IMG/VR virus record: IMGVR_UViG_2700989535_000004
Span: 1-9,780 of that record
DNA from: a virus
Lineage: Duplodnaviria; Heunggongvirae; Uroviricota; Caudoviricetes
Strand: one strand, 5' to 3'
Length of the DNA stretch: 9,780 nt
Shown: positions 565 through 9,129 of the stretch, piece after piece
How the letters are laid out: each line of letters starts with the position of its first letter
How positions within the stretch are numbered: position 1 is the stretch's first letter
Notes under the pieces: model-generated
The model's database searches: none
Told to the model about the DNA's origin: nothing
The model's input: only the letters and a program-made list of their open reading frames with translations
Made by a program: the position numbers and the translations under genes

Positions 565-782
565 GTTACATCCTCCCGCAATTAAGAGCGCGATATGATA
601 ACCAGACCGGGTCGGTCCAACAACGTATTACCCAAAATTCCAGTAATAAGTTCCAAATATTGCCGATATTTTAAGCAAAATGCTTATGCATGATTATTCA
701 TTCACGATATTTATAATTAAATGCGCATAACTTATTGAATTTAACCAACAAACATCGCTGCAAATAACGTTAAAAATCGCAA

Positions 783-806
783 ATTAACTACACCATTAAC
801 TACACC
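783..806. repeat. Perfect tandem direct repeat, 2 x 12 bp (ATTAACTACACC)
   Basis: Read directly: attaactacacc at 783-794 and again at 795-806, in the AT-rich intergenic region upstream of the Smr gene. Confidence 0.9.
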
Positions 807-1296
807 GTTCGGTGCACTGTATGCAACAATGCGGAACAAATAGACACAAGCGACGGGCTATACCGTTATCATTTTCCGGCTATCCGCCATGAAGCTGGTG
901 GATGATCACGGATAAACCGTTATGGAAGTCCCCATATCGGCATCATGCCCACCAGCGAGATTAGTTATCTGGTTGCTGATGGGAGGCTGACGAACCTCGA
1001 TGCTAGGGTGCGCAAAACTAGTGAGACCTTTTTTCTCTGCAACAGGCCCATAATTCGCGTTTTCTTTGTCTGCCGTAAGGTGGGGGATTTTTGGCGGATC
1101 CAGCAATGGCGCGGATTTTGTGATTTTTTATAGATAGACCTCATCTATCAATCCCGTGCACACCTTCCCAAAAAAAGTTTTCGAACCTGCGGCGATGTGA
1201 ACAAGGGTAGGCGGGCGGTCCCATAAGCAATGAGGTGTAGGGATTTCTATCCCCCTGGGGGTATTAAACACCACCCGATTTAAATACCGTCTTTTT

Positions 1297-1332
1297 TGTC
1301 ACTGTGTGTCACTCTCCGTCACGGTATGTCAC
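1297..1332. repeat. Four (T/C)GTCAC motifs at exact 10-bp phasing; candidate protein-binding array at the left island edge
   Basis: tgtcac at 1297-1302, tgtcac at 1307-1312, cgtcac at 1317-1322, tgtcac at 1327-1332. The array lies immediately downstream of the last island ORF (stop at 1339). Confidence 0.8.
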
Positions 1333-1338
1333 CACAAG

Positions 1339-1693: not shown

Positions 1694-2236
1694 TTACTCG
1701 CCTTTGTTCTGTAGCAACTTCTCAGGCGCGCTTCCGGTAGTTTCCATCAGGTAATCAGCCAGTATCTGTGGCAGGTTTTCGTCAAGTCTTGCACATGCGT
1801 TACATGCTTTGGCTATTTCCCTTTTTAGTTCATCCAGCATATACGGCCTTATATCGGGAAAGCGCCTTTGCATTGTGAGCGGGAGGCTGTCCATGATTGA
1901 TGAAATCTGACTCGCTAGTTTTGAAATCGCGTAGATGCAAAACTTTGTATCAATCACCTCGCCGCGTTCGCGCTCGTTTTTAAGTTCCTGCGCTTCCGCC
2001 TGGGCCGTCATTAATCTGATTCTTACGCGTAAAAGTTCATCATCATCAATCTCGCCTTTGTCGTTTGTAAGCTGGTTAATTGCATTGTTAACCCTATTGT
2101 CTATCACGCTAGCAACATCATAAAACGCCTCACGGCCTTTACGCTCAACGGGAGTTACTCCCCACTTGTCGAACGCTGTCGCACTTACGCGGCAGCTTTG
2201 CGCCATAGTTTTTTTGTTCATCAGGTGCGATTTCAT
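1694..2236 (-). CDS. Terminase small subunit, lambda Nu1 family
   Basis: Translation aligns along its length with lambda Nu1 as recalled (e.g. RLMTAQAEAQELKNERERGEVIDTKFCIYAISKLASQISSIMDSLPLTMQRRFP vs lambda RLTRAQADAQELKNARDSAEVVETAFCTFVLSRIAGEIASILDGLPLSVQRRFP). About 180 aa like Nu1. Start taken at ATG 2234-2236 (SD GTGGGGA, 5-nt spacer); ATG 2219-2221 (MNKK.., aligning with lambda MEVNKK) and GTG 2246-2248 are alternatives. Sits 134 bp downstream of cosN. Confidence 0.85.
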   Translation of the reverse strand: MKSHLMNKKTMAQSCRVSATAFDKWGVTPVERKGREAFYDVASVIDNRVNNAINQLTNDKGEIDDDELLRVRIRLMTAQAEAQELKNERERGEVIDTKFCIYAISKLASQISSIMDSLPLTMQRRFPDIRPYMLDELKREIAKACNACARLDENLPQILADYLMETTGSAPEKLLQNKGE

Positions 2237-2261
2237 CAATATCCCCACTTAGTTAAGGTTT

Positions 2262-2420
2262 CAGGTTGGTGTGTTGGTGTTATCTTTCCCTTTTTATTCA
2301 TAGAGATAGAGCGAAAAACAAAACCACCACCACCAACCCGAAAAGGCTCATAAATAGCGAAAATCCGCAAGGTCGCCGCCCCGTAGCCTGCCGGATCGCC
2401 GGAAAGGACCCGCCAGCCAG
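2262..2420 (-). other. Lambda-type cos site: cosQ-like flank (2382-2420), cosN (2370-2381) and a divergent cosB-like region (2262-2369)
   Basis: The minus strand reads CTGGCTGGCGGGTCCTTTCCGGCGATCCGGCAGGCTACG|GGGCGGCGACCT|TGCGGATTTTCGCTATTTATGA. The 12-nt block is the lambda cohesive end, and both flanks match the lambda right-end and left-end sequences as I recall them with only a few substitutions. After TATTTATGA the sequence diverges; the cosB-like region carries GGTTGGTGTGTTGGTG (2265-2280) and its inverted partner CCACCACCACCAACC (2324-2338) around an AT-rich core. Confidence 0.8.
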
Positions 2421-2437
2421 AACGGGCCCTAATTTCA

Positions 2438-2821
2438 TCAACCAATCAGCTTATAGCGACCATCCCGTGCATTGCGACGTACACGCTCAATCTTGAGGCA
2501 TAGCGCCGCATCTGGCTTTTTGGGGACAGGTACGCGGCAATATTCAGAAGCTCGAGGAATATTGTTTATCCAGTCGATCACTTCACTTAAATACCAGGCT
2601 TTACGCCCTTCCGTAACCTGTACGCGTTCGGGGAACTCTCCACGAGCCTCAAGGTTTAGCAATGTGCGACGGCTAAGGGTAGTAAGTTCCATCACCTGAT
2701 TCATATCAACAAGGCGTTCACTTAAACGCATTTTGTCAGCAATAGCCTTTAATTCCTCTACTGCTGGATCCGGATACATCATTTCGGCAATTGGCTTAAG
2801 GTCATTGTAATGATTCTGCAT
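2438..2821 (-). CDS. AlpA/Xis-family (HTH_17-like) DNA-binding protein, 127 aa
   Basis: ATG at 2819-2821 with SD AAGGGGGA (4-nt spacer). Central segment MELTTLSRRTLLNLEARGEFPERVQVTEGRKAWYLSEVIDWI has the AlpA/excisionase-type HTH pattern, with about 40 extra residues at the N-terminus and about 40 at the C-terminus. The stop lies directly next to cosQ. Confidence 0.6.
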   Translation of the reverse strand: MQNHYNDLKPIAEMMYPDPAVEELKAIADKMRLSERLVDMNQVMELTTLSRRTLLNLEARGEFPERVQVTEGRKAWYLSEVIDWINNIPRASEYCRVPVPKKPDAALCLKIERVRRNARDGRYKLIG

Positions 2822-2832
2822 TGTATCCCCCT

Positions 2833-3174
2833 TTACACACGAGCCAGCGGCTGAACAGAAATACCTGAGCCAACAAACGCGGCAACCTTTGCCGACAGTT
2901 CTCTTACAGACTCAGGCCAGTTCAGAGCATCAACATTTAAAACACCTGTCTTATAAACCTGTGCCTGTGTTTTTTTCGCTGTGTCGATTTGTACAGCGGA
3001 AACATAAACCGCTTTGCCTGCGCTCGTTCCATCCCATACCACTAGCGCACCAGTTGCATCTTCCTGCATCAGTGGCGTAAACGCAGGTATTACCCCTTTA
3101 TTGGCTGAAAATATCCCCAGCGTAGTAACCAGTGCTTCAGTGCCAGACATGAGTTCAGTGTAATGAGTAGCCAT
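2833..3174 (-). CDS. Head decoration protein, lambda gpD family
   Basis: 113 aa. Shares with lambda gpD as recalled: TPLM, LV(V/A)WDGT, YK(T/S)G, WPE and AF(V/A)G(S/T)(G/A)IS in the same order and spacing. ATG at 3172-3174 with SD AAGGGGGAG; starts 9 nt after the capsid gene stop. Confidence 0.85.
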   Translation of the reverse strand: MATHYTELMSGTEALVTTLGIFSANKGVIPAFTPLMQEDATGALVVWDGTSAGKAVYVSAVQIDTAKKTQAQVYKTGVLNVDALNWPESVRELSAKVAAFVGSGISVQPLARV

Positions 3175-3183
3175 TGCTCCCCC

Positions 3184-4230
3184 TTAGCCAATGCGAACGG
3201 TAACAAAACGATTGATGCGGGCCGGTATTGGCTGTGGTGCAGAGTGCGTTTGTACGTACTCAATAGCCGGATCACCAGGCACAATATAGTTTTTCGGTGC
3301 AAGTTCGGCTTTAGTCAGCCCCATTCGGGTTAGCTCCGGATCCTGAATACCGCCATAGGCGACAATCCCCTGAAGAGCCGTATTGCCAAGCACCATCAAA
3401 TCAGGATCAAGGAAATGTTTTTCAGTTCCGTCCTCGTCGGTATAACGTCCGCTGTAAACAACAATCGCAACATCGCCCATATACCCTTTAAAACTCACCG
3501 AATCACCAAGGTCTTTAAGGGCCGTTTCCAGTTCGGAATTAGAACCACGGCGGGTATCCAGAGCCTCTTTTATCGCTCTGAATGAACGGTATTTCTTCCA
3601 TACATTACCGCCCATAATGATGATATTAGTGACGCCCTCACTAAATTCTGCGTAGCTCTCAATATCATCATTTGGATCAAAAGTTTCTTTATCCTTACCT
3701 GACCACTCAGCACCGCCAGACTGCGTGATAATATTTTGTGGTTTTATATTCCAGTCCAGTTCATAACGTTCAATACCATCGCCCTCAATGATATTTTTCC
3801 CCGTTGTGATTGCCTGAACAGCAAGCCATTCAATACGTGCACGTATAGCTTTAGCCTGATTTACAATCGCCTGTTTAACTTTAATATTACGCGCCCCAAA
3901 AGCATTGTATTGTTCAGGTGATACACCAGCAGGGCGCACAGCTAACTTATTTGGATCAATGCTGCTTTTCGGTTTCATATAGCCAGGGCGAATTGTTTTT
4001 GATTCGTATCCCTCATCTCGTGAAACTTTACTGCCCACCATAGGAGAGCAAAACGCCGCGATCGGGATATTTGGATCGTCGATCGTATCAAGAATAATGT
4101 CTCTCGATTCAAACATTACCGAGCGAGTGAAAAACAAACTGGTAAACAACGCATTTAATTTTTTTTGCACATCTTCAGCATTAGCCATCTGCACAAGCTG
4201 TGTAGGCGAATATAAATCAACCATACTCAT
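3184..4230 (-). CDS. Major capsid protein, lambda gpE family
   Basis: Strong colinear similarity to lambda gpE as recalled (ITQSGGAEWSGKDKETFDPNDDIESYA.., DTRRGSNSELETALKDLG, GDVAIVVYSG, MVLGNT, with an MSM start like gpE). 348 aa from ATG 4228-4230 (SD AAAGAGG directly upstream); ATG 4222-4224 has better SD spacing. The six-frame ORF runs on to 4311 but that extension has no gpE counterpart. Confidence 0.9.
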   Translation of the reverse strand: MSMVDLYSPTQLVQMANAEDVQKKLNALFTSLFFTRSVMFESRDIILDTIDDPNIPIAAFCSPMVGSKVSRDEGYESKTIRPGYMKPKSSIDPNKLAVRPAGVSPEQYNAFGARNIKVKQAIVNQAKAIRARIEWLAVQAITTGKNIIEGDGIERYELDWNIKPQNIITQSGGAEWSGKDKETFDPNDDIESYAEFSEGVTNIIIMGGNVWKKYRSFRAIKEALDTRRGSNSELETALKDLGDSVSFKGYMGDVAIVVYSGRYTDEDGTEKHFLDPDLMVLGNTALQGIVAYGGIQDPELTRMGLTKAELAPKNYIVPGDPAIEYVQTHSAPQPIPARINRFVTVRIG

Positions 4231-4393
4231 CCTCTTTACATTCATTACAAATAATTGTGAATATATTCTATTACCGATGTCTGCTATGCGAATACATGCA
4301 ACCAAGTGCAATGTTGTATAAAATATGCCGTGACAACTTCAGTGCTGATAATTCGTGTTAATGTATTTACTTCCTTTGGTCGGGATTTATGTA

Positions 4394-5113: not shown

Positions 5114-5316
5114 CCCCACTACCCCCCACTTTTTCGCCTCACTTTTTAAGCTCCCCACATGATTTCCAACCTTGTTTTTTTGTGATTCTAATATGTTGTT
5201 TTTCAATGTGTTTTTTATTCCTCACTTTTGAGCCTATATACAGATTGAAAAGTGAGGGGCGCGGTTGCTTTTTGTTCAGTTCCTGCTATCCCCTCACTTT
5301 TGCGCCTCACTTTTTA
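5114..5316. repeat. Iteron array flanking an AT-rich core: putative replication origin
   Basis: CC(C/T)CACTTTT(T) copies at 5124-5134, 5137-5147, 5219-5229, 5292-5301 and 5304-5315; partial copies at 5114-5120 and 5153-5160; one inverted copy (AAAAGTGAGGGG, 5247-5258). A T-rich core lies at 5161-5217. The array starts at the stop codon of the replicase gene. Confidence 0.65.
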
Positions 5317-6729
5317 CAGTGGGCGCACATCATCACCGTCAATAGCGATAACGCCGTCTCTTTCCAGCTTGTACAGCCAGCGCCGGAAGTTTTTCATCTC
5401 ATACCCCAGCTTTTTCATATCATCGCGCAACAACGGGATAGTGCATTTATCGCCGCGCTGTGTGCGTGACCGGATACAGCCCCATAGTGCGGCGTGATTC
5501 TCCGTCTTGTTTCCGGCCTCCTCGATGCGCTCCAGTTCAACGGGTGGGCGCGGCTTATCCACAACCACCAGCGACGTGATTAACTCCTTGTCAGCGTCGG
5601 TAAAAAGCTCCACCACACGTAAATCATATGCAGCCTCTTTCAGTTCCTCCGCGTCCTTCATTTTGGTGCAGGAGATAACCAGGGCCTCACTGTCCGCGCC
5701 TTCGCGGCGGATCCGGTACTCAGCGTCCAGAGATGCACGAAATGCACTGGAACCACGCGCCCCTTTTGTTTCATCCTTGCCGGAATGGTGAACCACCAGC
5801 ACCGTGGCCCCTGTGCGTCGTTTCAGTTCGTCACATCCACGGATAAACGCCCCCATATCCCGCGCGTCATTTTCATCATTACCGCCAAAGCAACGCGCCA
5901 GCGTATCCAGAATAATCATGCGTACCGGTTTACCCGTTTCCCGTTCAACCTGGCGGGATGCGATAACCATTTCATCAACATCAAACTGGGCTGCAGGAAA
6001 AATCGGGCGGGTTACCAGGTACAGATTTTTCACCCGTTCATCATTAACGATTTCCCATGCCTTGATACGGCGGGGGACACCAATGCCACCTTCACCGACA
6101 ACATACATCACCGAACCATGCGCCACCCTGCGACCTCCCCAGTGGCGACCCGTGGCAACATGACACGCCCAGGAACACGCGAGGAACGATTTATAGGAAC
6201 CGCTCGCGCCGTATGTGCTGCACAATGAATTAGCCGGAATCACGCCCTTAACGACATAATCAAGCTGTGTGTCGTACCCTGCAGATCCAATGCTCATTGG
6301 TAGCGTGGTTTTTCGCTGACTGTATTGCTCGTCAGTAAGTATTTCCCCGCGCTCTGCCTGTTCGCGGATCCGTTGCAGGTAGTCGTGCCAGTTCTCCAGC
6401 TTCTGACTGTGCATTCCCTCAGGGTAATAATTCGCATCCCGTACACCTGCCGCCGCCAGCTTTTGCCCGATGGCATTAATATTTGACGGCTTGATGTGGC
6501 CTGCCTTGTACAGTCGGACACAATAGCGACCATCGTCGATAATTTTCAGGCCTGCCAGTTCGTCAAGCTGGCTGTCTCCCAGCCATACAGGCGGAACATT
6601 GTCGCCAGCAAGTCGCCCGTCCTGCTCCTGCCATTGTTTCGCGTGCGCCCAGGCATCACTACCCGCAAAAATAATGACTTCGGTCATTTTGTCGTAAGGC
6701 TGTTTTTTTAAGTTCGGTGCGCTTTTCAT
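5314..6729 (-). CDS. Replication initiator, primase/helicase type, with RepA-like AAA_25 ATPase core
   Basis: 471 aa. Walker A-like GASGSYKSFLA (Tyr where Gly is usual), Walker B-like RMIILDT and a VLVVHHSGKDE motif typical of RepA/AAA_25 helicases. The N-terminal 170 aa may be a degenerate Toprim (EVIIFAGSDAW..LKIIDDG) and the C-terminal 100 aa a DNA-binding domain. ATG at 6727-6729 (SD AGGGG, 6-nt spacer) overlaps the upstream stop as ATGA. Confidence 0.8.
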   Translation of the reverse strand: MKSAPNLKKQPYDKMTEVIIFAGSDAWAHAKQWQEQDGRLAGDNVPPVWLGDSQLDELAGLKIIDDGRYCVRLYKAGHIKPSNINAIGQKLAAAGVRDANYYPEGMHSQKLENWHDYLQRIREQAERGEILTDEQYSQRKTTLPMSIGSAGYDTQLDYVVKGVIPANSLCSTYGASGSYKSFLACSWACHVATGRHWGGRRVAHGSVMYVVGEGGIGVPRRIKAWEIVNDERVKNLYLVTRPIFPAAQFDVDEMVIASRQVERETGKPVRMIILDTLARCFGGNDENDARDMGAFIRGCDELKRRTGATVLVVHHSGKDETKGARGSSAFRASLDAEYRIRREGADSEALVISCTKMKDAEELKEAAYDLRVVELFTDADKELITSLVVVDKPRPPVELERIEEAGNKTENHAALWGCIRSRTQRGDKCTIPLLRDDMKKLGYEMKNFRRWLYKLERDGVIAIDGDDVRPL

Positions 6730-7025
6730 TTCTTGCCCCTGAATCCGTTAATCATGGTTTTCAGCTTCTGGATGTTTGCCCGTGCCCTGGCGTTGCTGGT
6801 GGGCACGTTATGCGGCGCGGTCTGTACCAGAGAAAAATCACACCGGAACTGATAAACAGGCATCACGCAATCATATTCGTAACCTTCACGGCGGTAGATT
6901 ACGCGCCGTTCTTCCACGCCCTTAATCATTACCGTGCCGCCGTACTGGTCGCGGTAAATATCACCGCGCGTAAATTTAGGGTGAGTGTTGCCACTGGCAG
7001 TTAAGCCAGAATATTTAAGTTTCAT
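6726..7025 (-). CDS. Hypothetical protein (99 aa)
   Basis: ATG at 7023-7025 with SD GGAGA upstream; stop overlaps the replicase start. Tight operon context; no family recognised. Confidence 0.5.
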   Translation of the reverse strand: MKLKYSGLTASGNTHPKFTRGDIYRDQYGGTVMIKGVEERRVIYRREGYEYDCVMPVYQFRCDFSLVQTAPHNVPTSNARARANIQKLKTMINGFRGKK

Positions 7026-7030
7026 TATTT

Positions 7031-7264
7031 TTATTCTCCGGTGTGCTGTTCTTTATATCTGTCGTGCAATAGATCTATTTCTTGCAGTTCCATTATTACA
7101 GGCTCAAGAAGCGTTATTAATGCCGTGGCAATTCTTGATTTTTGTTTGTCGCATTCATTGTCGCCAAGTGTTTCAAGCCATATGCGCAATATTTCCAGCA
7201 TGTTTTCACTGTGAGAAAGTGCAAGAAATGCGCGGTCTATTGTTTCGTGGTAAATATCACGCAT
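7031..7264 (-). CDS. Hypothetical protein (77 aa)
   Basis: ATG at 7262-7264 with SD GAGGA (about 8-nt spacer); 5-nt gap to the next gene. No family recognised. Confidence 0.45.
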   Translation of the reverse strand: MRDIYHETIDRAFLALSHSENMLEILRIWLETLGDNECDKQKSRIATALITLLEPVIMELQEIDLLHDRYKEQHTGE

Positions 7265-7490
7265 GGCTTACATCCTCAGGAAATTTTCTTCTGTAACGCG
7301 CCTCTGCCACATATTCCGCATAATCGGCGGCGATATTCAGTACATCAAGCCCCGTTGATTTATATTCTCTCGTGGAAAGTAAGAAAAAAGCCGCTCTAAT
7401 AAGCTCTGGCATTGACGAAAGCGCATCAGCCGCATCATCAGGAACGCCGGAAAATTCCTGTTTCAGGGAATTAAAACGATCATCACGCAT
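7257..7490 (-). CDS. Hypothetical protein (77 aa); possibly the C-terminal half of a frameshifted gene
   Basis: ATG at 7488-7490 lies 2 nt downstream of a G9 tract on the coding strand, which could serve as a G-rich SD. The frame is closed 6 codons upstream of the ATG. See finding on the homopolymer. Confidence 0.4.
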   Translation of the reverse strand: MRDDRFNSLKQEFSGVPDDAADALSSMPELIRAAFFLLSTREYKSTGLDVLNIAADYAEYVAEARYRRKFPEDVSHA

Positions 7491-7723
7491 AACCCCCCCC
7501 CATTTTCACAATCAGCAATCAGGATGGCTTTGGCCTCATTCAGCGCCATATCCGCACTAAGTTGCATAACCGCCAGCGAATGAGGAACGAAAGCCCCGGC
7601 ATATTCTGTTTCACTGGTAGCGTGCTTATGCGCCCTGTCCGCGATAACAGAAATATCAATCAGCGCATCAATCAGTGTTTTGATTGCTTCGGCGGCTGCG
7701 TCCGGACGGGTGTTATTGCACAT
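7463..7723 (-). CDS. Hypothetical protein (86 aa); possibly the N-terminal half of a frameshifted gene
   Basis: ATG at 7721-7723 with SD AGGGGGT (5-nt spacer). The reading frame passes through the G9 tract (encoding GGG) and stops 28 nt later, overlapping the next ORF. Confidence 0.4.
   Translation of the reverse strand: MCNNTRPDAAAEAIKTLIDALIDISVIADRAHKHATSETEYAGAFVPHSLAVMQLSADMALNEAKAILIADCENGGGLCVMIVLIP
7493..7501 (-). repeat. Homopolymeric tract: C9 on the plus strand, G9 on the coding strand
   Basis: Read directly (aaCCCCCCCCCatttt). Sits exactly at the junction of two overlapping out-of-frame ORFs. Confidence 0.95.
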
Positions 7724-7919
7724 GGTGCACCCCCTGACGAATACGGGCGGCGAATACCATCACGCAGCCAGCCGGTGATTGCTGACGGGCTTCCTGTTCG
7801 CTGGTGGCCTCAATGGTAATCACGCGCGGTTGTGCCGTACTCAGGGCGATAAAACGCCAGATGTATTTATTCAGGTTGTGCGAGTCCCGCCCTTGCGGGT
7901 GTATGGTATGATTTCTCAT
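7713..7919 (-). CDS. Hypothetical protein (68 aa), first gene of the minus-strand operon
   Basis: ATG at 7917-7919 with SD GAGG (5-nt spacer). The six-frame ORF extends to a TTG at 8009, but that extension would cover the leader hairpin and has no RBS. Confidence 0.4.
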   Translation of the reverse strand: MRNHTIHPQGRDSHNLNKYIWRFIALSTAQPRVITIEATSEQEARQQSPAGCVMVFAARIRQGVHHVQ

Positions 7920-8017
7920 AGCAGCCTCGATAATCTTGCTATCGTTGGTGGTTAGACGCCCCGTATGTGTTTCCGGCACTGCGGGGCGTTGCTCTTTGTA
8001 TTTCAACAATTCTTTTG

Positions 8018-8096
8018 GTGTGTTTCATGTTATGAGCGCATGAAACACACGTCAAGGCTTTTTGTATTTCTTTTTTTGTGTATACTGAAACACACC
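8018..8096. promoter_or_regulatory. Divergent promoter/operator region: perfect 12-bp inverted repeat overlapping a minus-strand sigma70-like promoter, plus a third half-site at the plus-strand promoter
   Basis: GTGTGTTTCATG (8018-8029), 9-bp spacer, CATGAAACACAC (8039-8050). Minus-strand promoter: -35 TTGACG (revcomp of 8050-8055), 17-bp spacer, -10 TAACAT (revcomp of 8027-8032). Third half-site TGAAACACAC at 8086-8095 just downstream of a plus-strand -10-like TATACT (8081-8086). A fourth GTGTTTC lies at 7967-7973 inside a leader hairpin (ACGCCCCG 7956-7963 / CGGGGCGT 7982-7989). Confidence 0.5.
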
Positions 8097-8116
8097 GATG
8101 ATTAGGAGTTTCAGAA

Positions 8117-8422
8117 ATGGCAACGGCTAACAAAAACGCAAAATCACAACTGACAACTGTCAGAGTCCCACTAGATGTTATGCAAGGGATGGAATCCGTT
8201 AAGCTGGACGGCGAAAGCAATGCCGGATTTATCGTAACCGCCATGCGCGGAGAAATAGCCCGCCGCCAAGCAGAAGGCAGCGGAGAAAATCCCCTTGTGT
8301 CGTCACTGGATGCCCTGGCTAAGGTCGAACAAATCGGCATCAAAGCAGCGGAAGAAATCGGGCAGCTTGTCACCGTTGCACGCGAAGAACTCCAGCGTCG
8401 CAAGACCAAAGAACCAGAGTAA
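8117..8422 (+). CDS. Putative ribbon-helix-helix (RHH) DNA-binding protein, 101 aa; candidate island repressor
   Basis: Strong SD (TAGGAG, 8-nt spacer). N-terminal segment QLTTVRVPLDVMQGMESVKLDGESNAGFIVTAMRGEIARR fits a beta-strand/helix/helix RHH pattern. Operator-like repeats lie just upstream and an intrinsic terminator downstream on the same strand. Composition is A/E/K-rich, unlike the Ser/Arg/Cys-rich opposite-strand reading. Confidence 0.6.
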   Translation: MATANKNAKSQLTTVRVPLDVMQGMESVKLDGESNAGFIVTAMRGEIARRQAEGSGENPLVSSLDALAKVEQIGIKAAEEIGQLVTVAREELQRRKTKEPE

Positions 8423-8479
8423 TCACCATCAGCGCCGTGGTGTAAGGTATTACGGCGCATTGCTATGCAGGACAACACA

Positions 8480-8653
8480 ATGACCGATAAAGAATTGACC
8501 AAAACATTATCACCGGCACGGAAAAGACGGCGCAGAAAGATAGAGCATGAATCAGAAAGATTCGCGCCATGTGCTTTTGCTCTTGAGAAATTCCTTAAAG
8601 AGCACAGGAAAAAGCTCTCGTTGCAAACCTTGGAACGAACCAAATCTGACTGA
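8480..8653 (+). CDS. Small basic protein (57 aa), co-transcribed with the RHH gene
   Basis: ATG at 8480 with AGGA 7 nt upstream; the ORF-track start at 8465 has no SD. Contains an RKRRRRK block. Followed 80 bp later by an intrinsic terminator. Confidence 0.4.
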   Translation: MTDKELTKTLSPARKRRRRKIEHESERFAPCAFALEKFLKEHRKKLSLQTLERTKSD

Positions 8654-8732
8654 TCACATTGCCCACCAGCCGCAAATGTGGCATTGTTGGTGATGCTCAT
8701 GCGTTGGGGATAACGTGTAGCTTGTGTCGAGG

Positions 8733-8761
8733 GGCCACCGTAGCGGGTGGCCTTTGTTTTG
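8733..8761 (+). terminator. Rho-independent terminator of the plus-strand cassette
   Basis: GGCCACC (8733-8739), loop gtagcg, GGTGGCC (8746-8752), then TTTGTTTTG. The U-tract is on the plus strand only. Confidence 0.6.
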
Positions 8762-8763
8762 CC

Positions 8764-9129
8764 TGTTATCCGGCAATTGTGGCGCTTCGCCACACGGTTG
8801 ATATAATCCCACTGCTCAGATTCATTTTTTGCGCAGTAGGTTAATTGTTCACAAAGGCGCTCCGGCAACGGGGCGCTTTTTGTTTTTATTAGTTTGTAGA
8901 AACCTGACTCAGAGATAATGCTCATATTCTGATTGCCGTCAGGGGTGTAAGTTAAATTTACTCCCTTTTTATCATCAAACATCTGCAACGCTCTGGCGTT
9001 AACAATATTGGTTTCACTCCCTCCAGTAAGGCCGGAAATAACCGGAATAATTTCGGCAAAATTTTGCAGATTCTGTTTTTCAGGACGAACGAAGCCCCGC
9101 CCTTGTTCGGGAGAATATCCAGTATTCAT
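8764..9129 (-). CDS. Hypothetical protein with a possible Bro-N-like motif; 3' boundary undefined, possibly a truncated remnant
   Basis: ATG at 9127-9129 with only a weak SD. The segment PDGNQNMSIISESGFYKLIKTKSAP resembles the Bro-N core (GGKQ.MT.INESGLYSLI..S.KP), but the N-terminal Bro-N signature is not evident. The ORF formally continues without a stop to 7939, across the plus-strand terminator, cassette and promoter region; I list only the 5' part, ended at an arbitrary in-frame position. Confidence 0.3.

What the first reader, a model, noticed from the sequence alone, without database searches (positions are those of the whole stretch)
6726..7919. Operon of five small unknown proteins upstream of the replicase
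Five ORFs of 68-99 aa are packed with overlaps of 4, 8 and 11 nt (plus the 28-nt G-tract overlap) between the switch region and the replicase, and all have plausible ribosome-binding sites. None matches a family I can name. In satellites this early position is where helper-sensing, derepression or helper-interference proteins sit.
Basis: inference. Interest (0 to 1): 0.5.

Follow-up and report, generated by a model that had tools for sequence, protein, structure and literature searches.

The report
Early operon of an E. coli phage satellite
The five small genes are real and form the conserved early operon of a common E. coli phage satellite (the EcCICFT073 / CP-933C family); two have known families, so the operon is ordinary, apart from an unstable run of G bases that fuses or separates two of the genes.

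Summary
Observation confirmed. Five minus-strand ORFs of 99, 77, 77, 86 and 68 aa have the stated 4, 8, 28 and 11 nt overlaps. All five are under purifying selection, and their order is fixed in 82 related loci.

"Unknown" is only partly right.
- ORF1 (6726-7025) is RgdR (DUF4222). It is 97% identical to the O157:H7 CP-933C regulator of type III secretion and motility.
- ORF5 (7713-7919) is an Icd/Kil-like cell-division inhibitor, the same family as the first gene of the phage P4 left operon.
- ORF2-4 are acidic helical proteins with no known function.

The whole operon is syntenic with the prototype PICI satellite EcCICFT073.

ORF4 and ORF3 are two ancestrally separate, translationally coupled genes joined by a hypermutable poly-G tract (7493-7501). 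Relatives carry G7 to G11. G8 restores the ancestral ATGCGTGA junction, and G7 or G10 fuse the two genes into one 154/155-aa protein.

Outside the given coordinates:
- The leader upstream of the Icd-like gene lacks the P1/P4 C4-type RNA.
- It carries a covarying hairpin that folds best on the opposite strand, which suggests a roughly 80-nt cis-antisense RNA over the ribosome-binding site. This is inference.

No test supported a helper-sensing or derepression role. Homology to P4 epsilon was rejected.

The parts
6726..7025 (-). ORF1, 99 aa, basic (pI about 10). RgdR-family DUF4222 protein with an RGD motif at residues 20-22. Its stop overlaps the replicase start (ATGA).
7031..7264 (-). ORF2, 77 aa, acidic (pI 4.8), predicted helical, function unknown. 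Present in 65 of 82 related loci.
   Evidence: phrog_2196 at E=6e-41, a family of unknown function. pN/pS is 0.36. It is 96% identical to the CP-933C gene and 88% to the EcCICFT073 gene. There is no Pfam, NCBIfam, PADLOC or PDB match.
7257..7490 (-). ORF3, 77 aa, acidic. It is the 'C-half' partner gene, and its start lies in an ATGCGTGA junction directly after the G tract.
   Evidence: It matches phrog_24341 and positions 78-154 of phrog_2512. pN/pS is 0.36. Distant relatives are stand-alone proteins of about 76 aa.
7493..7501 (-). Poly-G tract (G9 in this window) at the ORF4/ORF3 boundary. It encodes the Gly run at the end of ORF4 and serves as the Shine-Dalgarno element for ORF3. It is hypermutable: G7 or G10 fuse the two genes, G8 gives the ancestral 8-nt overlap, and G9 or G11 give other split forms.
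   Evidence: Among 81 IMG/VR loci the tract is G7 in 23, G8 in 34, G9 in 17, G10 in 4 and G11 in 2, plus one locus with an interrupted tract. Length is uncorrelated with flank similarity. This window's own allele is found as the G9 form on 163 contigs, G8 on 78, G7 on 15 and G10 on 4. Three islands that are 99.8-99.9% identical carry G8, G9 and G11.
7463..7723 (-). ORF4, 86 aa in this G9 state. Residues 1-77 are the conserved 'N-half' protein (acidic, helical). The last 9 residues (LCVMIVLIP) are a frame-dependent tail.
   Evidence: It matches phrog_5146 and positions 1-77 of phrog_2512. pN/pS is 0.23 for codons 1-77. Distant relatives are stand-alone proteins of about 75 aa that end ..GHA or ..HHA and have no G tract.
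7713..7919 (-). ORF5, 68 aa, basic (pI 10.7). Icd/Kil-like putative host cell-division inhibitor and first gene of the operon.
   Evidence: NCBIfam NF033153 at 68.9 bits against a cut-off of 25. It shares phrog_1743 and NF033153 with the C-terminal part of the old P4 'cI ORF', the kil region. The P4 region is in turn related to the N15, PY54 and D6 icd genes. pN/pS is 0.18. ATG 7919 is the start, because non-3n indels occur upstream of it.
7920..8020 (-). 5' leader of the operon. It contains the invariant CTAACCA motif (7949-7955), a small hairpin next to the Shine-Dalgarno element, and a GC-rich covarying hairpin (7956-7989).
   Evidence: Alignments of 9-45 variants. Covariation is seen in 6 of 8 pairs. 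The same element precedes Icd-like genes in Dryocola, Pectobacterium, Edwardsiella, Klebsiella, Enterobacter, Citrobacter, Cedecea and Oceanisphaera.
7904..8004 (+). Candidate cis-antisense RNA of about 80 nt. An extended -10 (TGGTATGAT, 7904-7912) is followed by the complement of the Icd-like AUG and Shine-Dalgarno element, the hairpin 7956-7989, and a T-rich tail 7990-8004. Inferred, not shown.
   Evidence: The hairpin is more stable on the + strand in 19 of 22 variants (mean -20.8 against -16.5 kcal/mol). The + strand consensus fold is -20.6 kcal/mol with 18 pairs, 9 of them compensatory, and G.U pairs that are valid only on this strand. A -10-like hexamer sits a constant 35-37 nt from the motif in most true elements (41-42 nt in three) across divergent starts. 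Terminator-like sites were called on the + strand at 7971-7995. There is no Rfam match.
8027..8055 (-). Sigma-70-like promoter of the operon (TTGACG, 17 nt, TAACAT). Three operator-like copies of GTGTGTTTCA overlap or flank it (8017-8027, 8041-8050, 8086-8096).
   Evidence: Promoter scan and repeats. The -35 element is conserved, and the repeat sequence changes in concert at its copies between island types.
5314..6729 (-). RepA-family helicase/replicase (471 aa), the last gene of the translationally coupled string.
   Evidence: Pfam AAA_25 at E=2.5e-44. RefSeq calls it 'helicase RepA family protein'. It is replaced by a primase-type replicase in EcCICFT073.
8117..8422 (+). Divergently transcribed YlcI/YnfO-family gene (101 aa), the candidate repressor of the operon. 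Context only.
   Evidence: NCBIfam NF041551 at E=1.6e-17. The same position and orientation are seen in EcCICFT073 and in many of the related loci; tblastn detects it in 58 of the 82.

Best explanation
The region is the conserved early operon of an E. coli phage-inducible chromosomal island (PICI) of the EcCICFT073 / CP-933C (O-island 51) type. In this window the island is inserted between smrA and abgR.

Shown:
- One minus-strand string of real genes runs from an Icd/Kil-like gene, through two small acidic partner genes (ORF4, ORF3), an acidic ORF2 and the RgdR (DUF4222) gene, into the replicase.
- Start and stop codons overlap, or nearly so, as expected for translational coupling.
- The ORF4/ORF3 junction is a hypermutable poly-G tract. 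It toggles between the ancestral two-gene state (G8), a fused single 154/155-aa protein (G7, G10), and a split state with a 9-residue tail and a 28-nt overlap (G9, as here).

Inferred:
- The operon is transcribed from the promoter at 8055-8027.
- In the resident state it is held off by the divergent YlcI/YnfO-type protein acting at the three operator-like repeats.
- An antisense RNA of about 80 nt may also mask the ribosome-binding site of the Icd-like leader gene.
- It is switched on when a helper phage induces the island activator AlpA.
- Once translated, the Icd-like protein blocks host cell division.
- RgdR, a basic small beta-barrel protein, modulates transcription, possibly through RNA polymerase.
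- The replicase then starts island replication.
- The three acidic proteins remain functionally unassigned. The fusions suggest that ORF4 and ORF3 act as a pair.
For: The genes are real and the order is conserved.
- pN/pS is 0.18-0.38 in frame against about 1-3 out of frame.
- The gene order is fixed in 82 loci.
- RefSeq carries the same annotation.

Family assignment.
- ORF1 hits DUF4222. It is 97% identical to O157:H7 RgdR and 92% to CFT073 c1493.
- Published work shows RgdR activates LEE1, represses motility and binds DNA non-specifically (PMC3378721).
- ORF5 hits NF033153 and shares that family and phrog_1743 with the P4 kil region.

Synteny with the prototype PICI EcCICFT073 is complete: alpA, YlcI on the opposite strand, Icd-like (97%), N-half, C-half, ORF2, c1493, replicase, SSB, capsid, decoration. 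The CP-933C island shows the same synteny.

Published work on EcCICFT073 shows that AlpA activates the island genes and is itself induced by the helper phage (PMC6092414).

G tract.
- Lengths from 7 to 11 occur.
- The identical allele is found in four tract states.
- Three near-identical islands carry G8, G9 and G11.
- Distant relatives have two separate genes and no tract.

Promoter and operator-like repeats. Antisense RNA candidate.

Precedent that satellite early operons with an Icd-like gene kill or arrest the cell when triggered comes from bioRxiv 10.1101/2023.04.06.535777.
Against: - No expression data were available, so the promoter, the repressor role of YlcI, the antisense RNA and the translational coupling are all sequence inferences.
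- Cell-division inhibition by this particular Icd-like protein is untested. It is only distantly related to P1 Icd, and tblastn found no direct hit in the phage collection beyond one satellite-like record.
- RgdR must be expressed without helper induction to affect LEE in EHEC. That does not fit a strictly repressed operon. A promoter-like site inside ORF2 (7120-7092) may explain it.
- The AF2 model of the fused ORF4-ORF3 protein was unusable (pLDDT 45.7).
- In the IMG/VR sample, fused forms make up about one third of alleles, which is the neutral expectation. The tract may therefore be merely tolerated rather than used.
Confidence: 0.6

Rival explanations
1. The small proteins are helper-sensing, helper-derepression or helper-interference factors, like epsilon of phage P4.
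For: - The position matches the P4 left operon, where epsilon (helper derepression) follows the kil/Icd-like region.
- Three of the five proteins are small, acidic and helical (pI about 4.7-4.8). That is a common look for proteins that bind and inhibit other proteins or mimic DNA.
- ORF2 and extra small genes come and go between islands, as accessory genes do.
Against: - Profile comparison of the N-half family with P4 epsilon gave a probability of 0.5%, and C-half against P4 ORF151 gave 0.2%.
- There are no PADLOC, Pfam or NCBIfam matches for ORF2-4.
- In EcCICFT073 the known packaging-interference function lies elsewhere (Rpp, per the title and abstract of PMC6739421 seen). The helper acts by inducing alpA rather than by relieving a repressor.
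Confidence: 0.25
2. The operon is chiefly an abortive-infection or superinfection-exclusion device. The Icd-like protein is a toxic effector, released when an incoming phage protein is sensed by the linked small proteins and the replicase.
For: - In ECOR61, a prophage-borne set of six linked genes (an Icd-like protein, small hypothetical proteins and a DNA primase) caused cell death on expression of a phage accessory gene. Removing the Icd-like gene abolished the effect.
- In an ECOR15 P4 satellite, suppressor insertions hit alpA, the Icd-like gene, a small gene and the primase.
- A tightly controlled leader, with operators plus a possible antisense RNA, is what a toxic first gene would need.
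Against: [quoted passage not shown] They could not be fetched for comparison, so homology beyond the Icd-like domain is untested.
- There are no PADLOC hits.
- The same operon is needed upstream of the replicase for the normal island cycle, so defence may be a side effect.
Confidence: 0.3
3. ORF4 and ORF3 are the two pieces of one gene broken by a frameshift (a decaying pseudogene), or the G-tract differences are sequencing errors.
For: - The two ORFs match the two halves of a 154-position PHROG.
- Many databases hold intact 154/155-aa proteins.
- Homopolymers are error-prone in some sequencing chemistries.
Against: - Both halves are under purifying selection (pN/pS 0.23 and 0.36).
- Relatives at 40-50% identity are separate proteins of about 75 aa, with no G tract and the same ATGCGTGA-type junction. 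Two genes is therefore the ancestral state.
- ORF3 keeps its own ATG and Shine-Dalgarno element in every state.
- The same allele occurs as G9, G8, G7 and G10 on 163, 78, 15 and 4 independent contigs from NCBI, ENA and Logan assemblies.
- All 12 sampled complete genomes with the CP-933C-type 94.6%-identity allele, seven of them labelled O157:H7, agree on G7. Random error would not produce that agreement.
Confidence: 0.07
4. The covarying hairpin in the leader acts in the sense mRNA, as a stabiliser, a processing site or a translational control element, and not as the terminator of an antisense RNA.
For: - The hairpin also forms in the sense orientation (mean -16.5 kcal/mol).
- The invariant CTAACCA motif can pair with the start-codon region (AUGGUU or AUGGCU) in several variants, which would sequester the start.
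- P1 and P4 control icd/kil through RNA elements on the sense strand.
Against: - In 19 of 22 variants the + strand hairpin is longer and more stable, because C-A mismatches in the sense strand become G.U pairs.
- A T-rich tail follows the hairpin only on the + strand.
- A -10-like hexamer keeps a fixed distance on the + strand.
- Rfam C4, isrK and c4-a1b1 models hit P4 but not this window.
Confidence: 0.3

Closest known systems
Early region of the prototype Gram-negative PICI EcCICFT073 (E. coli CFT073; Fillol-Salom et al. 2018, PMC6092414)
   Same: The gene string is the same: alpA, YlcI/YnfO on the opposite strand, Icd-like (97% identical), N-half (47%), C-half (90%), ORF2 (88%), DUF4222 c1493 (92%), replicase, SSB, capsid and decoration. 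The same G tract is present (G8 there).
   Different: EcCICFT073 has one extra 76-aa gene after the Icd-like gene and a primase-type replicase (584 aa) in place of the RepA-type helicase. It is inserted elsewhere in the chromosome, next to the phoPQ operon. The small genes were drawn as hypothetical proteins and were not studied.
CP-933C / O-island 51 of EHEC O157:H7 and its regulator RgdR (ECs1581; Flockhart et al. 2012, PMC3378721)
   Same: ORF1 is 97% identical to RgdR, including the RGD motif. ORF2 is 96%, ORF3 100%, ORF4 91% and the replicase 88% identical.
   Different: CP-933C carries the fused G7 form (154 aa), an extra 70-aa gene, a more divergent Icd-like gene (51%) and a degraded upstream region. 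RgdR was studied only for its effects on host LEE and motility, not for its role in the satellite.
Left (early) operon of satellite phage P4: kil/Icd-like region, epsilon, orf151, cnr, alpha
   Same: An AlpA/Vis-type gene lies upstream. An Icd-like domain protein is the first translated gene (NF033153 and phrog_1743 are shared). Several small proteins follow, and the replicase comes last.
   Different: There is no detectable homology of ORF1-4 to epsilon, orf151 or cnr. P4 controls the operon with the CI/C4-type RNA in the leader (Rfam C4, isrK and c4-a1b1 hit P4), whereas this island has no such RNA. It has a divergent protein gene with operator-like repeats instead.
immI-type icd-ant modules of P1/P7, N15 and PY54. 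From established knowledge, the c4 antisense RNA blocks icd translation and thereby blocks transcription of the downstream genes.
   Same: A small Icd-family ORF leads an operon whose downstream genes start the lytic or replicative programme. The P4 Icd-like region links this family to N15 gp32, PY54 icd and the icd of the P1-like phage D6. The leader ribosome-binding site appears to be an RNA-controlled gate.
   Different: The candidate RNA here is cis-encoded on the opposite strand, not a processed trans-acting C4 RNA. The downstream genes are satellite genes and a replicase, not an antirepressor. This part is inference.
Satellite or prophage-borne programmed-cell-death systems with an Icd-like effector (ECOR61 and ECOR15 P4; Silas et al., bioRxiv 10.1101/2023.04.06.535777)
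   Same: An Icd-like gene, small hypothetical genes and a primase or replicase act as one linked unit. Suppressor insertions fall in the Icd-like gene and neighbouring small genes.
   Different: No trigger is known for this island.
Homopolymer-tract phase variation (contingency loci of Neisseria, Haemophilus and Campylobacter; established knowledge)
   Same: A G run of 7-11 changes length between otherwise identical alleles and changes the reading frame downstream.
   Different: The tract sits at a gene boundary, and no state is a plain OFF. Both halves keep their own start signals, so the switch is between two polypeptides and one fused polypeptide. Switching within a clone has not been shown. 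Such tracts are uncommon in E. coli.

Membership tests
Gram-negative PICI (EcCICFT073 type) | Gene layout int - alpA - (regulatory region) - small genes - replicase - packaging/capsid-remodelling genes, about 10-15 kb, with no tail or lysis genes | tested here: met
   The window carries alpA (PF05930, E=1.3e-17), a RepA helicase, SSB, capsid, decoration and a Nu1-like terS. The integrase sits just beyond the window in the 99.9%-identical island of strain KSC1031. Gene-by-gene synteny with EcCICFT073 was confirmed.
Gram-negative PICI (EcCICFT073 type) | Induction, replication and high-frequency transfer by a helper phage through AlpA | not testable with these tools
   This is shown for EcCICFT073 only, in the literature.
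RgdR / DUF4222 | DUF4222 domain above the Pfam gathering score, about 99 aa, conserved core at residues 20-68 | tested here: met
   PF13973 scores 85.2 bits against a cut-off of 27, covering residues 16-68. The protein is 97% identical to O157:H7 RgdR.
RgdR / DUF4222 | RGD tripeptide at residues 20-22, which is functionally important in ECs1581 | tested here: met
   The sequence reads ...KFTRGDIYRD..., with R20, G21 and D22.
RgdR / DUF4222 | Activates LEE1 and represses motility | not testable with these tools
   This activity is published for ECs1581 and for CFT073 c1493, the closest relatives.
Icd / Kil cell-division inhibitors (P1 Icd, P4 kil region) | Match to the Icd-like domain model | tested here: met
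   NF033153 scores 68.9 bits against a cut-off of 25. The same model hits the P4 kil region at E=7.8e-21.
Icd / Kil cell-division inhibitors (P1 Icd, P4 kil region) | Inhibits host cell division when expressed | not testable with these tools
   No experiment was possible. The role is inferred from the family name only.
P1/P4-type immunity module (C4/CI RNA controlling icd/kil) | C4-family RNA and its target sites in the leader upstream of the icd-like gene | tested here: not met
   Rfam C4, isrK and c4-a1b1 are found in the P4 leader, which served as a positive control. Nothing was found in this window even at E of 10 or less.
P4 epsilon (helper derepression protein) | Sequence or profile homology to epsilon | tested here: not met
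   hhalign of the N-half family against epsilon gives a probability of 0.5%. A pairwise BLAST hint at 22% identity was not upheld.
Phase-variable contingency locus | Homopolymer tract whose length differs between otherwise identical alleles and shifts the frame | tested here: met
   The tract ranges from G7 to G11. Pairs with identical flanks share the same length only 56% of the time, and pairs with 1-2 flank differences only 12%. One allele occurs in four tract states on 260 contigs.
Phase-variable contingency locus | Reversible switching at high rate within a clonal population, with a phenotypic consequence | not testable with these tools
   This needs amplicon sequencing and phenotyping. 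The G7 state looks stable: all 12 sampled complete genomes with the CP-933C-type 94.6%-identity allele, seven of them labelled O157:H7, agree on G7.
Cis-antisense RNA control of a toxic leader gene (type I toxin-antitoxin-like) | Antisense promoter, complementarity to the toxin ribosome-binding site, and an intrinsic terminator | tested here: inconclusive
   An extended -10 lies at 7904-7912. The covarying hairpin is favoured on the + strand and is followed by a T-rich tail. No transcript evidence exists, and the -35 element is poor.
Known anti-phage defence systems (PADLOC) | Match to any PADLOC model | tested here: not met
   No hits at E of 1 or less for any of the proteins tested.

The most novel reading that the evidence does not exclude
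The operon may carry two unrecognised control layers.

1. The poly-G tract could be a true phase-variation switch. It would reversibly convert a two-subunit protein pair (ORF4 + ORF3) into a single fused chain, or into a tailed variant, so that a clonal population of satellite carriers holds several functional states.

2. An unannotated cis-antisense RNA of about 80 nt may exist, conserved upstream of Icd-like genes across Enterobacterales. By masking the ribosome-binding site of the Icd-like leader ORF, it would gate translation of the whole string down to the replicase. That would be a cis-encoded counterpart of the P1 c4-icd-ant gate.
Probability: 0.3. Interest if true: 0.6.

Novelty: new member of a known kind. 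Interest (0 to 1): 0.38.

Why it matters
About a fifth to a third of complete E. coli genomes carry DNA matching this operon: 1079 of 5426 match the ORF4/ORF3 segment, and 1830 of 5426 match some part of the operon. Pathogens such as O157:H7 and CFT073 are among them. One of its genes, rgdR, already links the satellite to virulence gene control.

Placing RgdR and an Icd/Kil-like protein in one coupled early operon of a PICI gives their natural context. It also offers concrete experiments for the open question of how Gram-negative PICIs stay silent and how they handle the host after induction.

The length-variable G tract means that annotation of these islands (two genes or one) is unstable, and that isolates may differ functionally at this locus.

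If the antisense RNA is real, it would be a new, widespread RNA family controlling toxic leader genes of satellites.

Tried and rejected
1. Long form of ORF5 from TTG 8009 (98 aa, matching a PHROG labelled 'transcriptional repressor'). Rejected, because relatives have 1-6 nt indels upstream of ATG 7919. The promoter would also leave no room for a ribosome-binding site. The PHROG label traces back to the obsolete P4 'cI ORF'.

2. ORF4/ORF3 as one gene broken by a frameshift. Rejected in favour of two ancestral genes.

3. Homology of ORF4 to P4 epsilon and of ORF3 to P4 ORF151. Rejected by hhalign.

4. AlphaFold model of the fused ORF4-ORF3 protein. The pLDDT was 45.7, so it was not used for fold search.

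5. Sequence search of all five proteins against PDB chains. Nothing below E=1.

6. PADLOC. No hits.

7. Rfam. Only meaningless microRNA-model matches appeared, on a long inverted repeat at 2258-2344 and in the switch region. Esr41 lies in a different O-island and has its own Rfam family, which did not hit.

9. The search for related loci with the C-half alignment failed for lack of a conserved block.

10. The genome contigs pattern scan returned mostly chance matches outside Enterobacterales. Only the 9 Enterobacterales hits and the Oceanisphaera hit showed the hairpin and an Icd-like start.

11. Literature searches for 'CP-933C + sRNA' and for 'Icd-like' beyond the Silas preprint gave nothing useful.

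12. The EcCIMP1 paper concerns a PerC-like gene, not this operon.

Full report
**What is in the window.** All long ORFs lie on the minus strand. A megablast of 6726-8009 against complete E. coli genomes matches 1830 of 5426 genomes. The best match is 99.9% identical, in strain KSC1031. RefSeq annotation of that locus shows an island between smrA and abgR. Its genes, in order, are: integrase, an AlpA-type HTH, a YlcI/YnfO gene on the opposite strand, an Icd-like gene, three hypothetical genes, a DUF4222 gene, a RepA-family helicase, a hypothetical gene, SSB, major capsid protein, head decoration protein, a second HTH, and small terminase. There are no tail or lysis genes. The layout and the proteins match the prototype Gram-negative PICI EcCICFT073 gene for gene, and also CP-933C / O-island 51 of O157:H7.

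**Check of the observation.** The five ORFs, their sizes (99, 77, 77, 86, 68 aa) and their overlaps (4, 8, 28, 11 nt, plus one 5-nt gap) are as stated. Each has a Shine-Dalgarno-like element. They are genuine genes:
- Across distinct alleles from 82 related loci, pN/pS is 0.18 (Icd-like), 0.23 (ORF4 codons 1-77), 0.36 (ORF3), 0.36 (ORF2) and 0.38 (ORF1).
- The shifted frames of the same alignments give about 0.8-2.9.
- The order Icd-like > ORF4 > ORF3 > (ORF2) > DUF4222 > replicase never changes.
- Each exact protein is already present on 163 to at least 1000 public contigs. All are named hypothetical, prophage protein, DUF4222 or Icd-like.

**ORF1 is RgdR.**
- It hits Pfam DUF4222 at 85 bits.
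- It is 97% identical to the O157:H7 protein and 92% to CFT073 c1493.
- It has the RGD motif at residues 20-22.
- Flockhart et al. (PMC3378721) showed that ECs1581/RgdR of CP-933C activates the LEE1 promoter and type III secretion. It also represses motility, binds DNA without sequence specificity, and c1493 can substitute for it.
- My AlphaFold model has mean pLDDT 69.9, and 83-87 for residues 20-68. It shows a five-stranded small barrel plus a basic C-terminal helix.
- Foldseek gives only KOW domains, at E about 0.03.
- This fits a factor that works through RNA polymerase, but the scores are weak and the fold is common. I treat it as a lead only.

**ORF5 is Icd/Kil-like.**
- It hits NCBIfam NF033153 at 68.9 bits against a cut-off of 25.
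- The same model, and phrog_1743, hit the C-terminal part of the old 'cI ORF' of phage P4, which is the kil region.
- That P4 segment is related to N15 gp32, PY54 icd and the icd of the P1-like phage D6.
- The real start is ATG 7919. Upstream of it, relatives differ by indels of 1-6 nt.

**ORF4 and ORF3, and the G tract.**
- ORF4 matches positions 1-77 and ORF3 positions 78-154 of one PHROG. Intact 154/155-aa proteins are common.
- The junction is a run of nine G at 7493-7501.
- Relatives at 40-50% identity, however, are separate proteins of about 75 aa with no G tract. The upstream protein ends ..GHA or ..HHA, which corresponds to a CATGCGTGA-type overlap with the next start. The ORF3/ORF2 junction in this window is built the same way.
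- Two genes is therefore the ancestral state. G8 reproduces it (as in CFT073). G7 or G10 fuse the genes (as in O157:H7). G9, as here, gives a 9-residue tail and the 28-nt overlap.
- Among 81 IMG/VR loci the tract is G7 in 23, G8 in 34, G9 in 17, G10 in 4 and G11 in 2, plus one locus with an interrupted tract.
- Tract length is essentially unrelated to flank similarity.
- This window's own allele is recorded as G9, G8, G7 and G10 on 163, 78, 15 and 4 contigs.
- Three islands 99.8-99.9% identical to each other carry G8, G9 and G11.
- All 12 sampled complete genomes with the CP-933C-type 94.6%-identity allele, seven of them labelled O157:H7, agree on G7. That argues against random sequencing error.
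- The tract is therefore hypermutable. Whether the cell exploits this is unknown. In the IMG/VR sample, one third of alleles are fused, which is the neutral expectation.

**ORF2-4 function.** All three are acidic (pI 4.7-4.8) and predicted helical. There is no match in Pfam, NCBIfam, PADLOC or PDB sequences. A pairwise hint of similarity between ORF4 and P4 epsilon was not upheld by profile comparison (probability 0.5%). The model of the fused protein was too poor to use.

**Control region (outside the given coordinates).**
- A sigma-70-like promoter (TTGACG, 17 nt, TAACAT; 8055-8027) faces the operon.
- Three copies of GTGTGTTTCA lie over and beside it. Their sequence changes in concert between island types, while the -35 element stays fixed. 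That is the behaviour of operators for the divergent YlcI/YnfO-family protein.
- P4 controls its kil-led operon with the C4/CI RNA. Rfam finds C4, isrK and c4-a1b1 in P4 but nothing here.
- Instead, the leader has an invariant CTAACCA motif and a GC-rich hairpin (7956-7989) with compensatory changes.
- The hairpin is longer and more stable on the + strand in 19 of 22 variants, because sense-strand C-A mismatches become G.U pairs.
- The + strand consensus fold is -20.6 kcal/mol with 9 of 18 pairs compensatory, against -5.3 kcal/mol for the sense alignment.
- On the + strand a T-rich tail follows the hairpin.
- An extended -10 (TGGTATGAT, 7904-7912; TATAAT in some alleles) keeps a constant distance of 35-37 nt from the motif in most true elements (41-42 nt in three), across alleles with different start regions.
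- The same element precedes Icd-like genes in eight other genera.
- I infer a cis-antisense RNA of about 80 nt covering the Icd-like Shine-Dalgarno element and AUG. There is no transcript evidence.

**How it most likely works.** In EcCICFT073, AlpA activates the island genes, and helper phages induce alpA (PMC6092414). I therefore read the five genes as the first part of the helper-triggered early transcript, translated as a coupled string that ends in the replicase.
- The Icd-like leader probably arrests host division.
- RgdR modulates transcription.
- The acidic pair and ORF2 are unassigned.

A preprint shows that comparable satellite-borne units (an Icd-like gene, small genes and a primase) cause cell death when a phage accessory protein is expressed, with the Icd-like protein as the likely effector. 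A defence role is therefore a serious rival.

RgdR affects LEE without helper induction. That points to some independent expression, and a promoter-like site inside ORF2 (7120-7092) is a candidate source.

**Verdict.** The finding is real but largely ordinary. It is a new member of a known kind of satellite early operon, with two of the five genes nameable and one already characterised. The parts worth following up are the length-variable G tract at a gene boundary and the candidate antisense RNA.

Noticed in passing
window 8017-8096: Three copies of the 10-11-mer GTGTGTTTCA (two direct, one inverted) sit over and beside the operon promoter, between the operon and the divergent YlcI/YnfO gene. 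In other island types all copies change together (for example GTGTATTTCA, GTGCGATTCA, GTGGGCCACA). This looks like type-specific operators, and so like a repressor-based switch in a PICI family for which no repressor has been reported.
   Followed up: partly
window 7904-8004, + strand: Candidate antisense RNA of about 80 nt (extended -10, complement of the Icd-like Shine-Dalgarno element and AUG, covarying hairpin, T-rich tail). It is not in Rfam. The same element occurs upstream of Icd-like genes in Dryocola, Pectobacterium, Edwardsiella, Klebsiella, Enterobacter, Citrobacter, Cedecea and Oceanisphaera.
   Followed up: partly
window 7939-9129, - strand: A 396-aa ORF runs from just downstream of alpA, through the antisense of the YlcI/YnfO gene and the promoter region, and ends inside the Icd-like leader. 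Only its N-terminal part looks protein-like (weak Bro-N hit, E=0.058). In O157:H7 the homologous stretch is annotated as an Icd-like pseudogene fragment. It is probably a remnant of an older, longer Icd-like or antirepressor-like gene.
   Followed up: partly
window 2258-2344: A near-perfect inverted repeat of about 87 nt lies between the second AlpA-like HTH gene (2438-2821) and the Nu1-like small terminase gene (1694-2248). It matched a microRNA model on both strands, which is a false positive. It could be a packaging, cos-related or regulatory site.
   Followed up: no
window 7092-7120, - strand: A promoter-like site (TTAATA, 17 nt, AATAAT, with TG) lies inside ORF2, 67-95 nt upstream of the rgdR start. 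It might explain why RgdR acts on host genes without helper induction.
   Followed up: no
window 7257-7264 and 7483-7490: The same ATGCGTGA(T) junction is used at the ORF3/ORF2 boundary and, in the G8 state, at the ORF4/ORF3 boundary. Both downstream proteins are 77 aa and begin with MRD. No other similarity between them was seen.
   Followed up: no
window 1694-4311: This 9-10 kb satellite encodes its own major capsid protein, head decoration protein and Nu1-like small terminase, but no portal, protease or large terminase. A second AlpA-family HTH gene (2438-2821) is embedded in this module.
   Followed up: no
L085 6455-6667 (O157:H7) and L131 3286-3516 (CFT073): Related islands carry one extra small gene between the Icd-like gene and the N-half gene (70 aa beginning MINLSLTDLN... 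in CP-933C, and an unrelated 76-aa gene in EcCICFT073). Some database proteins are fusions of these extra genes, or of the Icd-like gene, to the N-half. This slot therefore behaves as an accessory-gene hotspot.
   Followed up: no
window 565-1338: No convincing gene lies between smrA (1-564) and the first island gene (1339-1620). This is presumably the island end and attachment site. The island sits in the smrA-abgR intergenic region rather than at a tRNA gene.
   Followed up: no
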